From contig JAILPY010000175.1 in the NCBI GenBank assembly GCA_024699235.1, forward strand, positions 10,873-74,872: DNA of 64,000 bases. Reading direction: 5' to 3'. The translations under genes were made by a program, and so were the position numbers. Below are positions 3,126-23,172 of this stretch, in pieces. Within the stretch, counting starts at the first letter, position 1. Each line of letters begins with the position of its first letter. Under the pieces are notes generated by a model. The model was given only the letters and a program-made list of their open reading frames with translations. It was not told the DNA's origin and did no database searches. This DNA is from Treponema sp. (GTDB lineage Bacteria > Spirochaetota > Spirochaetia > Treponematales > Treponemataceae).

Positions 3126-3980
3126 ATGCAACTATTTTCTTTTACTGTATATGCTGTTATGTGTGGTAGATTTTATATTCAAGCATTTGTTCTTGCCTTA
3201 TTCTTTTTGCCGCTTACAGGCTGTGTCTCTAATAAAGTCCAGAAATTGCCTGTTGCCTTTAATATTGAAGATTCAGAATGGTCAGATAGGGAAAAAATTC
3301 TTCCTTGGAAAAATTATTCTGATAATTGCAGGATTTCCCGCAGCCTGTTTAAAGAAACAGGTAAATCGTTAAACTATTATATTTTTAAAGACAGCAAAAA
3401 TAAAATCATATACCTTATATTTGAAGACTCTCATAGTATTTCTGACTGGGTAAATGACTTTGATTATGTTGCTCTGTCTTATGAGCATGCACCATATTCT
3501 ATAACGGCTCATGGCGGATTTGTAAAGGTCTGGCAGTCTGGAAGTGAAAAGGTTATGAAGGAATTTGAAGAGGCTATTGCAGAAAATCCTTCGTATGAAT
3601 TGGTTATTACTGGGTGGAGTATGGGCGGTGCTTTTGCTCATTTTGCTGCAGAAGAGTTAAACTGGAAGACCCGCACAGAGAAGGCGGATCCAGATACCGG
3701 TAAAAAAGTTCTGCTCATTACTTACGGTTGTCCCCATCTTCTTTATGGAAGGCCGATGTCTGAATATTTTGCCAGGTGTGTAAAGGCTAGCTATAATTTT
3801 GCGCATGTCAAGGATGGATTCGCACGGCTGCCGCCTGAATCATGGGGCTTTTTTATAGAAAACCGCATAGAAATAGGGCAGAATGATCATAGCAGTAAAA
3901 GTCCTCATGTACGATATGGAGAAAAGGAACTGTATGGCAGCATTCATATTAACGACACTTACATTCAGACAGATGAATGA
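3126..3980 (+). CDS. Lipase class 3 family lipoprotein (start may be ATG 3159)
   Basis: Lipobox-like LPLTGC; AHGGF; ITGWSMGG (GxSxG); TYGCP; DGFARLP. Confidence 0.8.
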   Translation: MQLFSFTVYAVMCGRFYIQAFVLALFFLPLTGCVSNKVQKLPVAFNIEDSEWSDREKILPWKNYSDNCRISRSLFKETGKSLNYYIFKDSKNKIIYLIFEDSHSISDWVNDFDYVALSYEHAPYSITAHGGFVKVWQSGSEKVMKEFEEAIAENPSYELVITGWSMGGAFAHFAAEELNWKTRTEKADPDTGKKVLLITYGCPHLLYGRPMSEYFARCVKASYNFAHVKDGFARLPPESWGFFIENRIEIGQNDHSSKSPHVRYGEKELYGSIHINDTYIQTDE

Positions 3981-18325: not shown

Positions 18326-19831
18326 TTATTCGTTTCCCTGCTCATCAACCTTTAGAGGGGTGTTCGTAAAGTCATAGCCTATTGTATACATTCTTCTTCC
18401 AGAGAAATAGTCAGTTGTCAGTTTTACGACAACGCCTGAAAGAATCAGCAGAGAAATGATGTTAGGAATTGCCATCAGGCCATTAACGATATCTGCTATT
18501 GTCCATACGGCGCTTACAGTCATATAAGGTCCTATGAATACTGCTATTATATATAGATAGCGATATAGCTTTACAGGGGTCATATTACCCTTTGAAAGAT
18601 ATTCAATGCAGCGTTCTGAATAATAGTCCCATCCAAGAATGGTTGTAAATGCAAAAAGAACAAGACAAATCATAAGGATGAATGAAATTACAACAGGAGG
18701 AATTCTTGGAAGCAGAGTCTGGAATGCTGCGTTTGTCATTTCAAAGCCAGTCAAATTTGAAATTTCTGGCTTTATCAAAAGTCCGATAACTATTGTAAGG
18801 CCAGTCATAGAGCAGATTACGATTGTATCAAAAAAAGTTCCCGTCATGGATATTATTCCCTGCTGAACGGCATGGTCTACTTTTGCAGCGGATGCTGCTA
18901 TAGGAGCTGATCCTAAGCCTGCTTCATTTGAAAATATTCCGCGTGCAATTCCTTTTTGCATGGCAACAATCATTGCACCTATTGCTCCGCCTGCAGCGGC
19001 TTTGAATCCAAATGCACCTTTGAAAATAGATTCAAATGCGGCAAGCAGATAGGAGATGTTGCAAAGCAGTGCAAGTATTGCGAATACTGCATATATAACT
19101 GCCATAAATGGAACGATAACGCTTGCTACATTGGAAATTCTCTTAAGGCCGCCTATGACAACAAGCGCTACAAGAATTGCCAGTATAAAAGACGAAATTA
19201 CGACAACCATTGAATAGTTTCCAATGCCTGGTATTGTAACTGTAGAAAGAGCTGCTTCTCCTGCAGCTGTTTTTGCGAAAGTCTGGATTCCATTTGTTAT
19301 TGAGTTGACTTGACTGAATGTTCCAATTCCAAAAAGTCCTACCATAGTTCCGAAAATTGCAAAGAGGACTGCCAGCAGCTTTCCAAGTGTAGGAAACTTT
19401 GCACCTACTCCTTTTTCACAGGTATAAAATGGTCCGCCCAAAATATGGCCGTCTGATTTTTCTTCGCGGTAATGGATTGCAAGCAAGCATTCTGCATATT
19501 TAGTTGCCATTCCAAGAAGGGCTGCAAGCCACATCCAGAAAAGGGCTCCTGGACCGCCTAATGCAATGGCTGTTGCTACTCCGACAATGTTTCCTGTTCC
19601 AACTGTTGCTGAAAGAGCAGTACATAAAGCCTTAAAGCTTGAAAGTTCTCCGTCTGCGCCGGCTTCACTTTTGCGGAAAATAGACTTTATTGCAAATTTG
19701 AGCTGTGCAAATTGGACTCCTCTTAACTTTATGGTGAGGAATACACCTGTTGCCAGAATGAGGATTATTAGCGGTAATCCCCAAACGAAGTCATCAATGA
19801 CTCCTAGGATAGAATTGATTTTTGCGAACAT
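18326..19831 (-). CDS. Alanine/glycine:cation symporter (AGCS family)
   Basis: ALSATVGTGNIVGVATAI, GGPGALFWMW, RGIFSNEAGLGSAP. Confidence 0.93.
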   Translation of the reverse strand: MFAKINSILGVIDDFVWGLPLIILILATGVFLTIKLRGVQFAQLKFAIKSIFRKSEAGADGELSSFKALCTALSATVGTGNIVGVATAIALGGPGALFWMWLAALLGMATKYAECLLAIHYREEKSDGHILGGPFYTCEKGVGAKFPTLGKLLAVLFAIFGTMVGLFGIGTFSQVNSITNGIQTFAKTAAGEAALSTVTIPGIGNYSMVVVISSFILAILVALVVIGGLKRISNVASVIVPFMAVIYAVFAILALLCNISYLLAAFESIFKGAFGFKAAAGGAIGAMIVAMQKGIARGIFSNEAGLGSAPIAASAAKVDHAVQQGIISMTGTFFDTIVICSMTGLTIVIGLLIKPEISNLTGFEMTNAAFQTLLPRIPPVVISFILMICLVLFAFTTILGWDYYSERCIEYLSKGNMTPVKLYRYLYIIAVFIGPYMTVSAVWTIADIVNGLMAIPNIISLLILSGVVVKLTTDYFSGRRMYTIGYDFTNTPLKVDEQGNE

Positions 19832-19869
19832 CAGTTCACCTCGAATAATTATGGAATAAAATTTTAAAC

Positions 19870-19898
19870 ATTATATAGAATAAAAGTTGCTGTTTCAA
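19870..19898 (-). promoter_or_regulatory. sigma70 promoter of the AGCS gene
   Basis: TTGAAA-17-TATAAT. Confidence 0.7.
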
Positions 19899-20038
19899 TA
19901 CTTGAAAGTTATCCCTAAAATGAGCAAGGAGAGTTTAGCCTGCTTGTCTGCTCAACGTTGTAAAAATTACTTGAGCTGCTAATTATAAATTTTCATTGTA
20001 AGCAATTTCACCTGTCTTATTGCTAAAATTATCTTGCA

Positions 20039-20154
20039 CAGTGCATATAATCGTTTAGCGCAGTGCATATAATCGTTTAATGCAGTGCATATAATCGTTT
20101 AACGCAGTGCATATAATCGTTTAACACAGTGCATATAATCGTTTAACGCAGTGC
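20039..20154. repeat. Tandem array of a 22-bp unit (5 full copies plus a partial; degenerate flanking units)
   Basis: CAGTGCATATAATCGTTTAACG-like units start at 20039, 20061, 20083, 20105, 20127, with a partial at 20149; differences are confined to the last 3 nt; no spacers. Confidence 0.97.
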
Positions 20155-20326
20155 GTAAAATTATCAAATTCACTGTGGTAAATCGAAAAAGTCGTTGAGC
20201 AAATTTTTATATTGCTAAAAAACACCTTTTTTTGTTCTTGCTATGTGGACACCCATATTGGGGTGCTTGTTTTTAGTAAAAATTCTCCGTATGGTTTGGT
20301 TAATATAAGTCCTCTCTTTTAACTAA

Positions 20327-20355
20327 TAGTCAAAAACGCTAAAAAATGCTATATT
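20327..20355 (+). promoter_or_regulatory. Internal promoter of the R-M cassette
   Basis: TAGTCA-17-TATATT with a TG extension. Confidence 0.5.
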
Positions 20356-20386
20356 TTATTTATAAAATTTATTTTTGGGTGGGAAA

Positions 20387-21700
20387 ATGCATTTTACCAA
20401 ATCTATTAAATTTATAGATTTATTCGCTGGAATCGGTGGAATTCGTAAAGGATTTGAACTCGCATGTTCAGACCTTGGTATAGAAACAGAATGTGTTTTT
20501 ACATCTGAAATAAAGACTTATGCAGTCGATGTATTAAAACAAAATCATCCAAACGAATGTATTAACGGTGATATTACAAAAATAGAAACTTCCGAAATCC
20601 CAGATTTTGATTTTTTGCTTGGAGGTTTCCCTTGTCAGGCATTTTCATCAGCTGGTAAACGGCTTGGATTTGAAGATACTCGAGGAACTCTTTTTTTTGA
20701 AGTCGAAAGAATCCTTCGCGATAAAAAACCAAAAGGATTTATTCTTGAAAATGTTGAAGGATTAGTAAACCACGACAGAAAGAATCCAAAAGATAAAATC
20801 GGAAGAACACTTTCTATAATCTTGGAACATTTGACGGCTCTTGGTTACAAAGTTAATTGGCGAGTCTTGAATGCAAAAGATTTTGGTGTTCCGCAAGATA
20901 GAAAACGTATTTATATTACAGGAACATTTTCAGAAATTCCTGACTTACAAGATTTTGAAACGGTAAATTCAACACTTTCGGAAGTCCTTGAACATGGTTT
21001 GCCTGTGTCTAACAGTAAATTTGTAAATCTTGTTCTCTCACACTATTCTGTAAACCAGCTTTATGGAATGTCTATAAAGGATAAACGAGGTGGAGAAAAT
21101 AATATTCACAGTTGGGATATCGATTACAAAGGTAAAACAACAAAACAGGAGAAAAAATTCCTAAACTTACTTTTAAAAGAAAGACGAAAAAAGAAATGGG
21201 CTGTTGAGTATGGTATAGATTGGATGGACGGTATGCCTCTTACAATCGATATGATTCGTACTTTCTGTAATCCCAACAATCTTGAAGTCATGCTTGAAGA
21301 TTTAGTTTCAAAAAAATATCTCAAGAAAGAGCATCCAAAAAGGAAAGTAGGAAACAAAAGAGTTCAAGATGAATCTTTACCGCTTGGTTATAATATTGTT
21401 GCTGGCAAAATGTCTTATGAAGTCGCAAAGGTTTTAGACCCGAACGGAATTGCTCCTACTCTTGTAGCAATGGATATGGAGCATTTGTTTGTTGGCGATA
21501 ATGGTGGAATTAGAAAATTGTCATTAAGAGAAGGTTTACGGCTTTTCGGTTATCCAGATGATTTTAAATTTAATGTGTCACAACAAGACGGTTATGACTT
21601 GCTTGGCAATACAGTTGTAGTTCCTGTGATAAAGCAAGTTGCTCTTCGAGTTTTAAAAATTTGTGCAGCGGAGAAAAAGAATGAAAGTGAATGCGCTTAA
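20387..21700 (+). CDS. C5-cytosine DNA methyltransferase, M.NlaIV/M.NgoBV-like (predicted GGNNCC)
   Basis: FIDLFAGIGG (motif I), GFPCQ (IV), ENV (VI), PQDRKR (VIII), LGN (X); the variable region KDKRGGENNIHSW…GIDWMDGMPLT matches M.NlaIV as recalled. Confidence 0.9.
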   Translation: MHFTKSIKFIDLFAGIGGIRKGFELACSDLGIETECVFTSEIKTYAVDVLKQNHPNECINGDITKIETSEIPDFDFLLGGFPCQAFSSAGKRLGFEDTRGTLFFEVERILRDKKPKGFILENVEGLVNHDRKNPKDKIGRTLSIILEHLTALGYKVNWRVLNAKDFGVPQDRKRIYITGTFSEIPDLQDFETVNSTLSEVLEHGLPVSNSKFVNLVLSHYSVNQLYGMSIKDKRGGENNIHSWDIDYKGKTTKQEKKFLNLLLKERRKKKWAVEYGIDWMDGMPLTIDMIRTFCNPNNLEVMLEDLVSKKYLKKEHPKRKVGNKRVQDESLPLGYNIVAGKMSYEVAKVLDPNGIAPTLVAMDMEHLFVGDNGGIRKLSLREGLRLFGYPDDFKFNVSQQDGYDLLGNTVVVPVIKQVALRVLKICAAEKKNESECA

Positions 21701-22409
21701 AGTATTTGAAAAATTGCTTGATGAAGATAAATTGCTAGAAATTGAAGGGCAAATAAAATTCTTCTTGGGTGATGTAGATATAATCGTCAAACAAAAAGAT
21801 GTTGTTGGAAATATAATTCAAGAGTGGTTGCAAGGCTGGATGGATAAACGGGGAATTGAATATGCTTTAAATGACAATACTCAAATGCCTCCAGATTTTT
21901 TTTTAAATCCAAAAGATAAAACGACCGATTTGCTTGAAGTAAAAGCCTTTAACCGATCTGCAAGTCCGGGATTTGATATTGCAGATTTTCGAATGTACGA
22001 AGAAGAAATTATTGAAAAACCTTATATGCTCAATGTCGATTATATTATTTTTGGTTATGATATGAGTGATGATGGTGTTGTAACAATAAGAGATTTATGG
22101 CTCAAAAAAGTCTGGGAAATTACCCGCAGAATGGAAGGTTGGTCTATAAACCTGCAGGTAAAGCAAGGGGTTGTACATAAAATTCGTCCAGGAGTTTGGT
22201 ATAGCGACAGACCGGGAAATATTCCTATGTTCAAAAGTATGGAACATTTTATTTCCGCAATTGAAGAAGCTGTATATCAAAATCCCAAAACACATGAATC
22301 TGCTGCAACTTGGAAAAAGAATTTTGTTGATAGTTATAGAAAATTTTATGGTGTTAAATTGGACATTCCAAGATGGCAAGAAATAGCCTCTCAATATGAA
22401 GTAAAATAA
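21681..22409 (+). CDS. Type II restriction endonuclease, NgoBV/NlaIV family
   Basis: KQKDVVGNIIQEW, PPDFFL…LEVK (PD-(D/E)xK), PGFDIADF, QVKQGVVHKIRP; overlaps the MTase 3' end by 20 bp; GGAG Shine-Dalgarno. Confidence 0.85.
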   Translation: MKVNALKVFEKLLDEDKLLEIEGQIKFFLGDVDIIVKQKDVVGNIIQEWLQGWMDKRGIEYALNDNTQMPPDFFLNPKDKTTDLLEVKAFNRSASPGFDIADFRMYEEEIIEKPYMLNVDYIIFGYDMSDDGVVTIRDLWLKKVWEITRRMEGWSINLQVKQGVVHKIRPGVWYSDRPGNIPMFKSMEHFISAIEEAVYQNPKTHESAATWKKNFVDSYRKFYGVKLDIPRWQEIASQYEVK

Positions 22410-22410
22410 T

Positions 22411-22474
22411 CACATAACAAAAGTTCAAAGTCGATACAGACTCAAGGTCTGTGCGGTTTAACTCATTGCTATGC
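22411..22474 (+). other. attC-like recombination site (about 63 bp)
   Basis: R'' CATAAC, spacer AAAA, L'' GTT(C)AAA…TACAGA, loop, TCTGTG…TTTAAC L', spacer TCATT, R' GCTATG. The bulged C22426 corresponds to the conserved extrahelical G of the bottom strand. Confidence 0.72.
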
Positions 22475-22644
22475 AGTTAAATGTTAAAAAGCAAAATTTC
22501 TAAAAAGTATATGCAAATTATTTTTGACGTTGACCAGAATAAGTTTATGCGTCAGAATGAATTTCAAGGATATTTCATAACTGCCCATTTTCTGGCGGAA
22601 GCAATGTTAATGATAATCCTGTATAAAAATGGAGTCTAGTCATA

Positions 22645-23172
22645 ATGAAGATTGTTTTTTTAACAATTCTGATGATTTTTGCCTTTAATTTTTGCTTTGC
22701 TCAGGAAAAGGTAAATTCATGTATGCTCCAAGGCGAATGTTGGGCTTGCAAAATTTCAGCTCCTGATGGATGGGTTTTAGATCAGGAAAGCTTTTCGCAG
22801 TATGGCATTTCTGGATTGTTTTATGAAGAAGGAAAGGCTTTGGGAGGCTCTACTCCAATAATATATGTAAATAGTGAAAAGTTGAGCAGAGATACGGATG
22901 CTTCCTTAAAGCGATTTATAAAATCAGATTTAGGCAAGTATGAAAAAAAAGGTGCTTCTGTAAAGGCTGTAAAATTAGAAGGCGTTACAGATAAGCGGAT
23001 AGACTGTTATAGTATTGAGACAGGCAGAAGTGCTGAGCTTTGCGCTTACACTAGATTCAAAAATGTCTGTTTTTTAATAGTTCTTACGGCAAATACTGCT
23101 GATGGAATTAGCAGAAACATATCTAATATGGAAGAACTTATTAATAATATGGAATATATGGAAAGAAATTGA
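22645..23172 (+). CDS. Hypothetical exported protein
   Basis: Signal peptide (…FCFAQ), GGAG Shine-Dalgarno, 175 aa. Confidence 0.7.
   Translation: MKIVFLTILMIFAFNFCFAQEKVNSCMLQGECWACKISAPDGWVLDQESFSQYGISGLFYEEGKALGGSTPIIYVNSEKLSRDTDASLKRFIKSDLGKYEKKGASVKAVKLEGVTDKRIDCYSIETGRSAELCAYTRFKNVCFLIVLTANTADGISRNISNMEELINNMEYMERN

What the first reader, a model, noticed from the sequence alone, without database searches (positions are those of the whole stretch)
20238..22474. Restriction-modification system packaged as a solitary integron-type gene cassette
Seen in sequence: two nt after the REase stop is a ~63-bp imperfect palindrome with attC layout: R'' CACATAAC, AAAA spacer, L'' GTT(C)AAA with a bulged C, central stem TACAGA/TCTGTG, L' TTTAAC, TCATT spacer, R' GCTATG. 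The same TTGCTATG occurs 2.2 kb upstream (20238-20245). Joining the two ends into a circle gives R' = GCTATGTG, which pairs with CACATAAC at 7/8 positions, better than the integrated R' GCTATGCA (5/8). Established: that asymmetry is the diagnostic of a cassette excised and integrated by an IntI integrase, and chromosomal integrons are known in Treponema denticola. Inference: a 2228-bp self-promoted NlaIV/NgoBV-like R-M cassette was dropped into an ordinary intergenic site with no integrase or neighbouring cassettes. That would mean integron machinery is seeding defence genes outside arrays.
Basis: partly seen in the sequence, partly recalled or inferred. Interest (0 to 1): 0.85.

Follow-up and report, generated by a model that had tools for sequence, protein, structure and literature searches.

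The report
Lone integron cassette carrying restriction-modification genes
A two-gene restriction-modification defence unit in a rumen Treponema genome is a genuine integron gene cassette sitting alone between two housekeeping genes, a natural case of the already described off-array ("SALIN") route of cassette spread.

Summary
Window 20241-22468 (2228 bp) carries a C5 methyltransferase and an NgoBV/NlaIV-family endonuclease, followed by a 65-nt attC (22411-22475). A covariance model built only from attC sites elsewhere scores this site at 61.4 bits (E 5e-12). It is the only hit in the window and on the 99-kb contig. The same cassette (94% nt identity) lies between two attC sites in an array in another rumen Treponema MAG. 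It also sits alone beside a femAB-like gene in a third genome. Homology among the three copies starts and stops exactly at the G|TT crossover. The cassette's first bases co-vary with its own R'' box. Four relatives have the flanking symporter and lipoprotein-like genes only 92-115 bp apart.

- The genome is not integron-free. It has a truncated intI, an attI-like junction and attC arrays on small contigs.
- The window also carries about 480 bp of further intergenic DNA that the relatives lack, so the exact empty site is unproven.
- The R' core reads GCT, against GTT in 31 of 32 sites first compared, so the site is probably immobilised.

Solitary cassettes, attG insertion and R-M cassettes are all published. 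This is a new member of a known kind.

The parts
20238..20245 (+). Left junction. Chromosomal ...TTCTTG, then the crossover (20240|20241), then the cassette start CTATG. This is the first copy of the 8-bp TTGCTATG.
   Evidence: In alignment A3, homology with the array copy (L021) and the other solo copy (L043) begins exactly at the G.
20241..20247 (+). Distal half of R' carried at the cassette 5' end (CTATGTG). It is complementary to the cassette's own R'' CACATAAC, except that C20241 replaces the usual T.
   Evidence: In L021 the homologous cassette starts TTAGGCG and its R'' is CGCCTAAC. In L043 the start is TTATGTG and the R'' is CACATAAC. This is covariation between the two ends.
20248..20275 (+). 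GAC, then a hairpin CACCC-ATATTG-GGGTG (20250-20265), then a T-rich tail. This is the conserved 'post-crossover hairpin' of Treponema-type cassette starts and looks like an intrinsic terminator.
   Evidence: It is the only terminator-like site in 19800-22700. A hairpin in the same register is present in about 27 of 34 cassette starts from at least 14 genomes, with compensatory stem changes. The window's left end folds at -8.6 kcal/mol and the right flank at -0.4.
20327..20355 (+). Promoter-like site internal to the cassette: TAGTCA, 17 nt, TG-extended TATATT.
   Evidence: The block AATAGTCAAAAA.GCT.AAA.AATGCTATATTTTA is nearly invariant in A3 and is also recognisable upstream of several non-cassette homologues. 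Function is inferred.
20387..21700 (+). C5 cytosine DNA methyltransferase gene (437 aa from the ATG).
   Evidence: PF00145, E 2.7e-83, profile positions 1-322 of 324. It is 97.5% aa identical to the L021 copy and 96.6% to the L043 copy.
21681..22409 (+). Type II restriction endonuclease gene of the NgoBV/NlaIV family (242 aa). It overlaps the methyltransferase gene by 20 nt.
   Evidence: PF09564, E 1.9e-151, profile positions 1-238 of 238. It is 96.7% aa identical to the L021 copy and 96.3% to the L043 copy.
22411..22475 (+). attC site: R'' 22411-18, L'' 22423-30 (bulged C22426 and G22430), stem-loop 22431-22455, L' 22456-62, R' 22468-75 (GCTATGCA). The crossover is at 22468|22469.
   Evidence: Model R1 was built without this site. 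It scores 61.4 bits, E 4.9e-12, with all 67 model positions matched on the + strand, against 12.2 bits on the - strand. nhmmer gives E 6.7e-10. It is the only site on contig C12.
22466..22473 (+). Right junction and second copy of TTGCTATG. The cassette ends ...CATTG, and the chromosome resumes CTATGCAGTTAAATG.
   Evidence: In alignment A4, similarity to the other cassette copies stops after TTG(T/C)TAT. The right flank has no cassette-start hairpin.
18326..19831 (-). Left neighbour: Na+/alanine symporter gene. It is conserved and adjacent to the right neighbour in relatives.
   Evidence: PF01235. It is 90-92% aa identical in G312 and G148, with conserved synteny, and is also present in L079 and L080.
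22645..23172 (+). Right neighbour: a 175-aa hypothetical protein gene, followed by an SGL/gluconolactonase-like gene.
   Evidence: Homologues at 66-72% aa lie 92-115 bp from the symporter start in four relatives.

Best explanation
Window 20241-22468 is a 2228-bp integron gene cassette of the Treponema integron type. It is a self-contained transcription unit. From 5' to 3' it has the distal R' half, a terminator-like hairpin, its own promoter, a C5 methyltransferase gene, an NgoBV/NlaIV-family endonuclease gene (expected specificity GGNNCC) and a 65-nt attC. The cassette circulates horizontally among rumen Treponema species. In this genome it lies outside any cassette array, in the intergenic region between a Na/Ala symporter gene and a hypothetical-protein gene. 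[quoted passage not shown] The most likely route is integron-integrase (IntI) recombination between the folded attC of a circular cassette and an R'-like secondary site (...TTCTTG|CTATGCAG...). In that route the crossover falls after the G, no target duplication is made and no gene is disrupted. The host's own intI is now reduced to a 69-codon remnant, and the R' core reads GCT instead of the near-invariant GTT. The cassette is therefore probably no longer excisable and is kept as a resident, possibly addictive, defence module. What is shown: cassette identity, boundaries, solitary position, horizontal spread and absence from relatives. What is inferred: IntI catalysis at this exact site, promoter and terminator function, GGNNCC specificity and immobilisation.
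For: (1) attC membership. A covariance model built from 16 array attC sites, with the window's site excluded, has 14 pairs with changes on both sides and 82.7% of cells paired, against 30-42% for slid controls. It scores the window site at 61.4 bits, E 4.9e-12, on one strand only. Genome-wide there are 14 sites, and all the others lie on small multi-site contigs.
(2) The same cassette in an array. L021 (M 97.5% and R 96.7% aa, 94.3% nt) has attC sites at 3-68, 1036-1100 and 3264-3330, and the R-M unit lies between the last two.
(3) Boundaries. In A3 and A4, similarity among the window, L021 (array) and L043 (solo) starts at G|(T/C)TA and ends at TTG|(T/C)TAT, with unrelated flanks in all three.
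(4) Circular-permutation signature. The cassette start is complementary to its own R'' and co-varies with it: TTAGGCG/CGCCTAAC in L021, and (T/C)TATGTG/CACATAAC in L043 and the window.
(5) The window's left end carries the GAC-hairpin typical of cassette starts, and the right flank does not.
(6) Horizontal transfer. The cassette is 94% nt identical to copies in genomes whose core genes are at most 72% identical or undetectable.
(7) Absence in relatives. G312, G148, L079 and L080 keep the symporter and 175-aa genes as divergent neighbours 92-115 bp apart, against 2813 bp here.
(8) Integron background. There is an intI C-terminal remnant followed by an attI-like junction and a cassette on C28. 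An intI over the family cut-off is present in 36 of 151 genomes of the genus.
(9) Precedent. SALINs and attG insertion with cleavage G|WT are described.
(10) GGNNCC is the most depleted of 12 NN-gapped palindromes, with O/E 0.74.
Against: The exact empty site was not found. Relative to the four relatives the window has about 340 bp extra on the left (19900-20240, including a 22-bp tandem array) and about 137 bp extra on the right (22469 to about 22605). The cassette may therefore have entered an already expanded, species-specific spacer, or it may have arrived as part of a larger block.
The R' core is GCT at both junctions. A canonical G|TT cassette inserted at G|CT should leave GTT on the left, so one extra T-to-C change or a non-canonical donor is needed. 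GCT also does not fit the IntI1 attG consensus GWT.
GTT is invariant in 16/16 model sites and 15/16 further sites.
No intact intI is present in this 93%-complete MAG.
The array contigs are small and assigned to the genome by binning.
IntegronFinder's own attC model was not available.
Confidence: 0.8

Rival explanations
1. It is a genuine cassette, but IntI did not put it here at this site. The whole block of about 2.7 kb (19900 to about 22605: spacer with the 22-bp repeats, the cassette, and the right spacer) would have been imported or rearranged as one piece. Possible routes are homologous recombination after transformation from a strain in which the insertion had happened, or decay of a small array or attI platform that left one cassette.
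For: Relatives' homology stops about 340 bp left and about 137 bp right of the cassette ends. The GCT core argues against a recent canonical IntI event. Scattered single attC sites with decayed R' boxes occur in related genomes.
Against: The 22-bp repeat family in the left spacer is native to this genome, with four other loci. No attC or attI-like sequence lies left of 20240, and no second attC lies anywhere on the 99-kb contig. The left junction falls exactly at the crossover G, as an IntI event predicts.
Confidence: 0.12
2. Insertion was IntI-independent: illegitimate, microhomology-mediated recombination between a circular or linear cassette copy and the chromosome at the shared 8-mer TTGCTATG.
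For: An identical 8-bp repeat, including the non-canonical C, lies at both junctions. This is what a single crossover within shared microhomology would leave.
Against: It requires a donor whose R' was already GCT, which was not seen in 32 sites. The crossover window coincides with the integrase cleavage position. L043 shows the same cassette solo with canonical GTT at both junctions. The 8-mer alone is common.
Confidence: 0.05
3. It is an assembly or binning artefact: the R-M cassette was joined to this chromosomal contig through repeated attC or hairpin sequence.
For: The genome is a MAG with 210 contigs. attC repeats fragment the arrays. Reads could not be inspected.
Against: Both junctions would have to be chimeric. 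The window's attC and 5' hairpin differ at several positions from every other copy in the genome, so they share no long k-mers. Solo copies of the same cassette occur in independently assembled genomes.
Confidence: 0.02
4. It is not a cassette at all. The hairpin would be an ordinary terminator, the 8-bp repeat would be chance, and the R-M pair would have arrived by some unrelated route.
For: The 8-mer frequency is at chance level. The MFE fold shows only a short stem. More distant homologues of the R-M pair (72-90% aa) occur without attC in Treponema and Clostridia.
Against: The covariance-model score, the array copy, the exact shared boundaries, the R''/5'-end covariation and the cassette-start hairpin all argue against it.
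Confidence: 0.01

Closest known systems
[quoted passage not shown]
   Same: One CDS unit with one attC, with no other att site or intI nearby. It lies in an ordinary chromosomal intergenic site with the crossover after a G. No gene is disrupted and expression is possible without Pc. SALINs were found in 2469 of 21,105 genomes.
   Different: The target core is GCT, not the GWT consensus defined for IntI1. The integrase would be a Treponema-type IntI. Here the same natural cassette is also seen in an array and at a second solo site in other species. Both junction cores carry the same non-canonical base.
Treponema chromosomal integrons (T. denticola and relatives; Wu, Doak & Ye 2013, PMC3607928)
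   Same: attC sites are short (63-68 bp there, 65-69 bp here) with R and L boxes and a protruding base. intI loss that leaves attC sites and cassettes behind is described for T. phagedenis. On C28 the intI remnant has the same orientation as the cassettes, as I recall for T. denticola (from memory).
   Different: The host is an uncultured rumen Treponema lineage, not an oral species. This cassette is outside the array. The paper's search required at least 2 attC sites within 10 kb, so it could not see solo cassettes. It does not mention restriction genes (0 occurrences).
Defence and restriction-modification cassettes of sedentary chromosomal integrons (bioRxiv 10.1101/2024.07.02.601686; mobile integrons 10.1101/2024.07.02.601719)
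   Same: It is a compact type II restriction system packaged as one cassette. Some defence cassettes carry their own promoter.
   Different: Those are Vibrio and other proteobacterial integrons, and the cassettes lie in arrays. This one is in a spirochaete and is solitary.
NlaIV / NgoBV type II R-M systems (GGNNCC; Pfam PF09564 with a PF00145 m5C methyltransferase)
   Same: There are full-length matches to both families, with overlapping M-then-R gene order. GGNNCC is depleted in the genome.
   Different: Specificity and activity were not tested. The family is widespread without attC (Clostridia, Victivallales, other Treponema), so the attC is a secondary acquisition in one sub-lineage.
aadB cassette at secondary sites in RSF1010 and pRAY (classical secondary-site insertions, cited)
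   Same: A single cassette inserted by IntI outside attI/attC at a degenerate core site, which then becomes fixed.
   Different: Those are plasmid targets and a resistance gene that depends on an external promoter. Here the target is chromosomal and the defence unit has its own promoter.

Membership tests
Integron gene cassette (attC-bearing) | A 3' attC with R''-L''...L'-R' imperfect palindrome that is recognised by an attC covariance model | tested here: met
   The clade-specific model R1 (16 sites, this one excluded) gives 61.4 bits, E 4.9e-12, full length and strand-specific. IntegronFinder's generic attC_4 model was not available.
Integron gene cassette (attC-bearing) | Conserved AAC (R'') and GTT (R') triplets | tested here: not met
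   The R'' AAC is present (22416-18). R' reads GCT (22468-70), against GTT in 16/16 and 15/16 comparison sites. I read this as a decayed or immobilised core, not as non-membership.
Integron gene cassette (attC-bearing) | Extrahelical base(s) in the L box that give strand selectivity | tested here: met
   C22426 and G22430 occupy the unpaired model columns between paired columns, as in all 16 model sites.
Integron gene cassette (attC-bearing) | Unit bounded by G|TT crossovers, with a 5' end complementary to its own R'' (circular-permutation signature) | tested here: met
   Pairing is 7/8 across the circular junction and 5/8 when integrated. The two ends co-vary in L021 and L043. Homology with the other copies starts and stops at the crossover.
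Integron gene cassette (attC-bearing) | The same unit is found as a member of an attC array elsewhere | tested here: met
   L021 has three attC sites, and the R-M unit lies between the second and third.
Integron gene cassette (attC-bearing) | Excision as a circle and integration by IntI | not testable with these tools
No intact intI is present in this genome.
SALIN / off-array (attG-type) insertion | A single attC with no other att site or intI in the neighbourhood | tested here: met
   It is the only model hit in the 64-kb window and on the 99-kb contig. There is no TIGR02249 match on C12.
SALIN / off-array (attG-type) insertion | The target is ordinary chromosomal DNA, and an empty site exists in relatives | tested here: inconclusive
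   Four relatives have the two flanking genes 92-115 bp apart without the cassette. The window also has about 480 bp of extra spacer, and no conspecific genome is available.
SALIN / off-array (attG-type) insertion | Target core 5'-GWT-3' with cleavage G|WT (defined for IntI1) | tested here: not met
   The inferred target core is G|CT (compared). The consensus is for a different integrase.
Complete integron | An intact intI with an adjacent attI and array | tested here: not met
   Only a 69-codon C-terminal remnant is present (TIGR02249 positions 256-315; 93.7 bits and 96.7 bits, against a cut-off of 265). An attI-like junction and cassettes follow it on C28.
Type II R-M, NgoBV/NlaIV family | A full-length endonuclease of PF09564 paired with an m5C methyltransferase | tested here: met
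   PF09564 matches profile positions 1-238 of 238, E 1.9e-151. PF00145 matches 1-322 of 324, E 2.7e-83.
Type II R-M, NgoBV/NlaIV family | GGNNCC recognition and methylation | not testable with these tools
   There is only indirect evidence: GGNNCC O/E is 0.74, the lowest of 12 gapped palindromes.

The most novel reading that the evidence does not exclude
The cassette family carries a conserved module, not found described in the papers consulted here, right after the crossover point. It consists of GAC, then a 5-10-bp GC-rich hairpin with a (G)CACT(G)-type loop, then often a T-run. The module shows compensatory stem changes across at least 14 genomes and travels with each cassette. If it is a functional extension of the Treponema-type attC, or an insulating terminator, then each cassette is an autonomous transcription unit (terminator, promoter, genes, attC). 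That would explain why cassettes of this clade function when dropped anywhere in the chromosome, and why scattered solo attC sites are common in these genomes. The shared GCT at both junctions would then mark either a relaxed cleavage specificity of the Treponema IntI or a one-step 'locking' mutation that domesticates a defence cassette.
Probability: 0.25. Interest if true: 0.55.

Novelty: new member of a known kind. Interest (0 to 1): 0.4.

Why it matters
This is a clean natural example of a process so far shown mainly by experiment with IntI1 in E. coli and by bulk SALIN counts. One identifiable cassette (94% nt identical) is seen in three states across species: inside an array, solo beside a femAB-like gene, and solo here. 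That is direct comparative evidence that integron cassettes leave arrays and seed defence genes into core chromosomal regions, here in a gut spirochaete clade in which 36 of 151 sampled genomes (about a quarter) carry an intI over the family cut-off. It also gives testable material. The GCT core can be compared with GTT for mobility. The conserved post-crossover hairpin is a candidate new part of the recombination or expression module. A related genome offers an apparently orphan endonuclease copy. The finding does not change the current picture of integron biology.

Tried and rejected
There was therefore no read support for the junctions, no search for circles and no empty-site variants.
- Exact-protein look-ups of both flanking genes found nothing.
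- A metagenome scan with the 175-aa neighbour found no relative.
- A search of 5.8 billion proteins found no homologue above 72% identity. No conspecific genome is available, so a precise empty site could not be obtained.
- A DNA search of 60 relatives found no right-flank homology. The relatives chosen on symporter similarity (G030, G025, G014) are not syntenic on the cassette side. Only the genus-wide search gave the syntenic G312 and G148.
- The plain MFE fold does not recover the full attC structure, so it was not used as evidence.
- I considered that the left flank might be an attI or a decayed attC. It has no convincing similarity to the C28 attI region or to the attC model, so I rejected this.
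- I considered that the cassette interrupts a gene. No ORF spans the joined flanks.
- I considered that the 22-bp repeats belong to the mobile unit. They are a genome-wide intergenic repeat family.
- The 8-bp repeat is not significant as stand-alone evidence.
- The strict first regex for attC missed about half of the sites. It was replaced by nhmmer and the covariance model.
Full report
**What is in the sequence**

The window lies on a 99-kb contig (C12) of a 2.81-Mb, 210-contig genome. Related records are titled rumen or gut Treponema MAGs.

- Position 20387-21700 encodes a C5 cytosine methyltransferase (PF00145, E 2.7e-83).
- Position 21681-22409 encodes a full-length NgoBV/NlaIV-family endonuclease (PF09564, E 1.9e-151).
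- TTGCTATG occurs at 20238-20245 and again at 22466-22473.
- The 8-mer is not rare by itself: 6 copies are found against 4.6 expected.
- A simple ssDNA fold recovers only the central stem.

The case therefore rests on the comparisons below.

**The genome has an integron background**

A search with the integron-integrase model TIGR02249 finds no intact intI in this genome. It does find a 69-codon open frame on contig C28 that matches model positions 256-315. The score is 93.7 bits in the genome search and 96.7 bits on re-scanning the frame; integron integrase is the best NCBIfam family. About 120 nt downstream lies ...TTTG|TTATGTGGACGCCCGCACTGGGGCGC, followed by a gene and a typical attC.

A regex scan, then nhmmer, then a covariance model found 13 further attC sites. 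They lie on small contigs (C18, C22, C28, C51, C124, C151, C195), most of which carry several sites. The genome thus holds a degraded integron, with arrays fragmented by assembly. In the genus, 36 of 151 sampled genomes have an intI over the family cut-off, and about nine more have fragments.

**attC test**

I aligned 16 attC sites, 12 from this genome's arrays and 4 from related loci, leaving the window's site out.

- The R''-L''-stem-L'-R' structure pairs 82.7% of cells, against 30-42% when partners are slid.
- Fourteen pairs change on both sides.
- The resulting model R1 scores window 22411-22475 at 61.4 bits, E 4.9e-12. All 67 model positions are matched and the bulged bases fall at the model's unpaired columns.
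- The opposite strand scores 12.2 bits, and the next best hit in 64 kb scores 15.4 bits.
- Genome-wide, this is the only site on C12.

The site is a member of this clade's attC family, and it is solitary.

**The same cassette elsewhere**

A genome-collection scan with the endonuclease found close homologues in several rumen Treponema MAGs.

- L021 (M 97.5% aa, R 96.7% aa, 94.3% nt). Three attC sites form an array, and the R-M unit lies between the second and third.
- L043 (96% aa, 93.8% nt). The unit is again solitary. It starts 9 nt after the stop codon of a femAB-like gene downstream of metG, and there is only one attC in 12.7 kb.
- G036. The endonuclease (94.6% aa) and its attC persist, but only the last 45 codons of the methyltransferase remain.
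- More distant homologues (55-90% aa). These occur in Treponema, Clostridia, Victivallales and others without a recognisable intact attC, in all loci whose flanks were inspected or scanned. One of them, L029, retains an eroded half-attC. The attC was therefore acquired by one sub-lineage of an older R-M module.

Alignments of the window, L021 and L043 show that similarity starts exactly at G|(T/C)TA on the left and ends at TTG|(T/C)TAT on the right. The flanks are unrelated in all three.

The cassette's first bases are complementary to its own R'' and co-vary with it. L021 has TTAGGCG with CGCCTAAC. L043 and the window have (T/C)TATGTG with CACATAAC.

The cassette is 94% identical between genomes whose core genes are at most 72% identical or undetectable at DNA level. 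It therefore moves horizontally.

**Absence in relatives**

Two species of the genus (G312, G148) keep gene order over about 19 kb around the site. Two metagenomic contigs (L079, L080) carry the symporter, the 175-aa gene and the SGL gene in the same order. In all four, the symporter gene and the 175-aa gene are divergent neighbours 92-115 bp apart, against 2813 bp in the window.

Homology of the spacer ends at about 19900 (just past the symporter promoter) and resumes at about 22605. The window therefore has, besides the 2228-bp cassette, about 340 bp on the left and about 137 bp on the right that the relatives lack.

- The left piece holds a 22-bp tandem array. It belongs to a repeat family found at four other loci of this genome, so it looks native rather than imported.
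- No ORF spans the joined flanks.
- The relatives are only 80-82% identical in the flanking genes, and no conspecific sequence exists in the searched collections.

The exact empty site therefore remains unproven. I judge it outweighed by the boundary evidence from the other copies.

**The odd core**

GTT in R' is invariant in the 16 model sites and in 15 of 16 further sites from 12 other genomes. The window reads GCT at both junctions.

Canonical recombination cleaves G|TT and, for attG sites, G|WT. Under that rule the left junction should carry the cassette's T, so one of three things must be true:

- a later T-to-C change occurred;
- the donor was non-canonical;
- the crossover arose through the 8-bp microhomology.

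Other scattered sites in related genomes also show decayed R' boxes. With no intact intI and a GCT core, the cassette is probably fixed in place.

**Extra anatomy**

Directly after the crossover, most cassettes of this clade carry GAC and then a GC-rich hairpin. Its loop is usually (G)CACT(G), its stem shows compensatory changes, and a T-run often follows. About 27 of 34 cassette starts have it.

- The window's left end has it: CACCC-ATATTG-GGGTG, -8.6 kcal/mol. It is the only terminator-like site in the region.
- The right flank lacks it.
- A TG-extended -10 promoter-like site at 20327-20355 is conserved in the cassette copies and recognisable in several non-cassette homologues.

The cassette therefore looks like an insulated, self-promoted unit, which fits function at any insertion site. 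GGNNCC is the most depleted of 12 gapped palindromes in the genome (O/E 0.74). This is consistent with, but does not prove, activity of a GGNNCC system in the lineage.

**Comparison with what is known**

- Solitary cassettes (SALINs: 3400 in 2469 of 21,105 genomes) and IntI-catalysed insertion at non-att 'attG' sites are described, as are older secondary-site cases.
- Type II restriction systems are reported as prevalent among integron defence cassettes, some with their own promoters.
- Treponema integrons, including intI loss that leaves attC sites behind, are described. The method used there required clusters of attC sites, and the paper does not mention restriction genes.

This finding is therefore a new member of a known kind: a well-documented natural instance in a new host clade. 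Three details may be new. They are the same cassette seen in array and solo states across species, the GCT core at both junctions, and the post-crossover hairpin.

**Verdict**

- Confidence that this is a genuine, solitary integron cassette is about 0.95.
- Confidence that IntI placed it at this exact site is about 0.65-0.7.
- Confidence for the combined best explanation is 0.8.
- Interest is moderate (0.4).

Noticed in passing
window 20030-20160; also G000 C109:38181-38310, C137:133-257, C157:31173-31272, C153:40-250: There are six tandem 22-bp units (GCAGTGCATATAATCGTTTAAC) just upstream of the cassette. They belong to a genome-wide family of intergenic 22-bp tandem arrays with a shared CAGTG...AATCG core and array-specific variants. 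The relatives' compact spacer lacks the array. Its function is unknown; a phased protein-binding array is one possibility.
   Followed up: partly
window 20248-20275; cassette starts in G000 C18, C28, C51, C151, C195 and loci L021, L043, L060-L075: A conserved GAC plus GC-rich hairpin lies immediately after the G|TT crossover of most cassettes. Its loop is usually (G)CACT(G), its stem shows compensatory changes, and a T-run often follows. About 27 of 34 cassette starts from at least 14 genomes have it. I did not find it described in the papers read here.
   Followed up: partly
L043:4540-6840 (JAEDCT010000016.1, Treponema sp. MAG013): This is a second solitary copy of the same R-M cassette, 9 nt after a femAB-like gene's stop codon, with canonical GTT at both junctions. 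Its own 5' hairpin-terminator (GACGCCATTTCAAGAGCTGAGGTGGTG-T7) is nearly identical to the sequence that follows its attC on the right flank. It differs from the hairpin of the window and L021 copies. This is unexplained. The hairpin may have been exchanged or homogenised, or a remnant of a second cassette may be present.
   Followed up: partly
L018/L022 (G036:C10:6578-7490, NZ_JAHAZL010000092.1): An endonuclease 94.6% identical in aa sequence has an open frame and its attC, but only the last 45 codons of the methyltransferase remain upstream. This is an apparently orphan restriction gene, which would need a protecting methylase elsewhere or be inactive.
   Followed up: no
G000 C28:3000-3179 (L001:1474-1683) and L001:1684-1830: There is a 69-codon C-terminal remnant of an integron integrase in the same orientation as the cassettes. 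About 120 nt downstream lies an attI-like junction (...AATATTTG|TTATGTGGAC-hairpin) and the first cassette. This is a degraded integron platform.
   Followed up: partly
L029:4500-6850 (JAFSJX010000101.1): An R-M homologue (87% and 94% aa) is flanked by direct repeats of about 30 bp (GTTGCRCGTATAGCAAWGYCGTGTTA). It is followed by only the R''/L'' half of an attC (CACATAATAAAGTTTTCAAATACGAC). It looks like a cassette whose attC has been eroded or replaced.
   Followed up: no
whole genome G000: GGNNCC is the most under-represented of 12 NN-gapped palindromes (O/E 0.74). GANNTC is next at 0.81.
   Followed up: partly
G362, G312, G148, G036 (loci L081-L090): Single attC sites are scattered over large contigs in related genomes. 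Several have right flanks that lack the cassette-start hairpin, and some have decayed R' boxes (for example L085 and L088). Off-array cassettes therefore seem common in this genus.
   Followed up: partly
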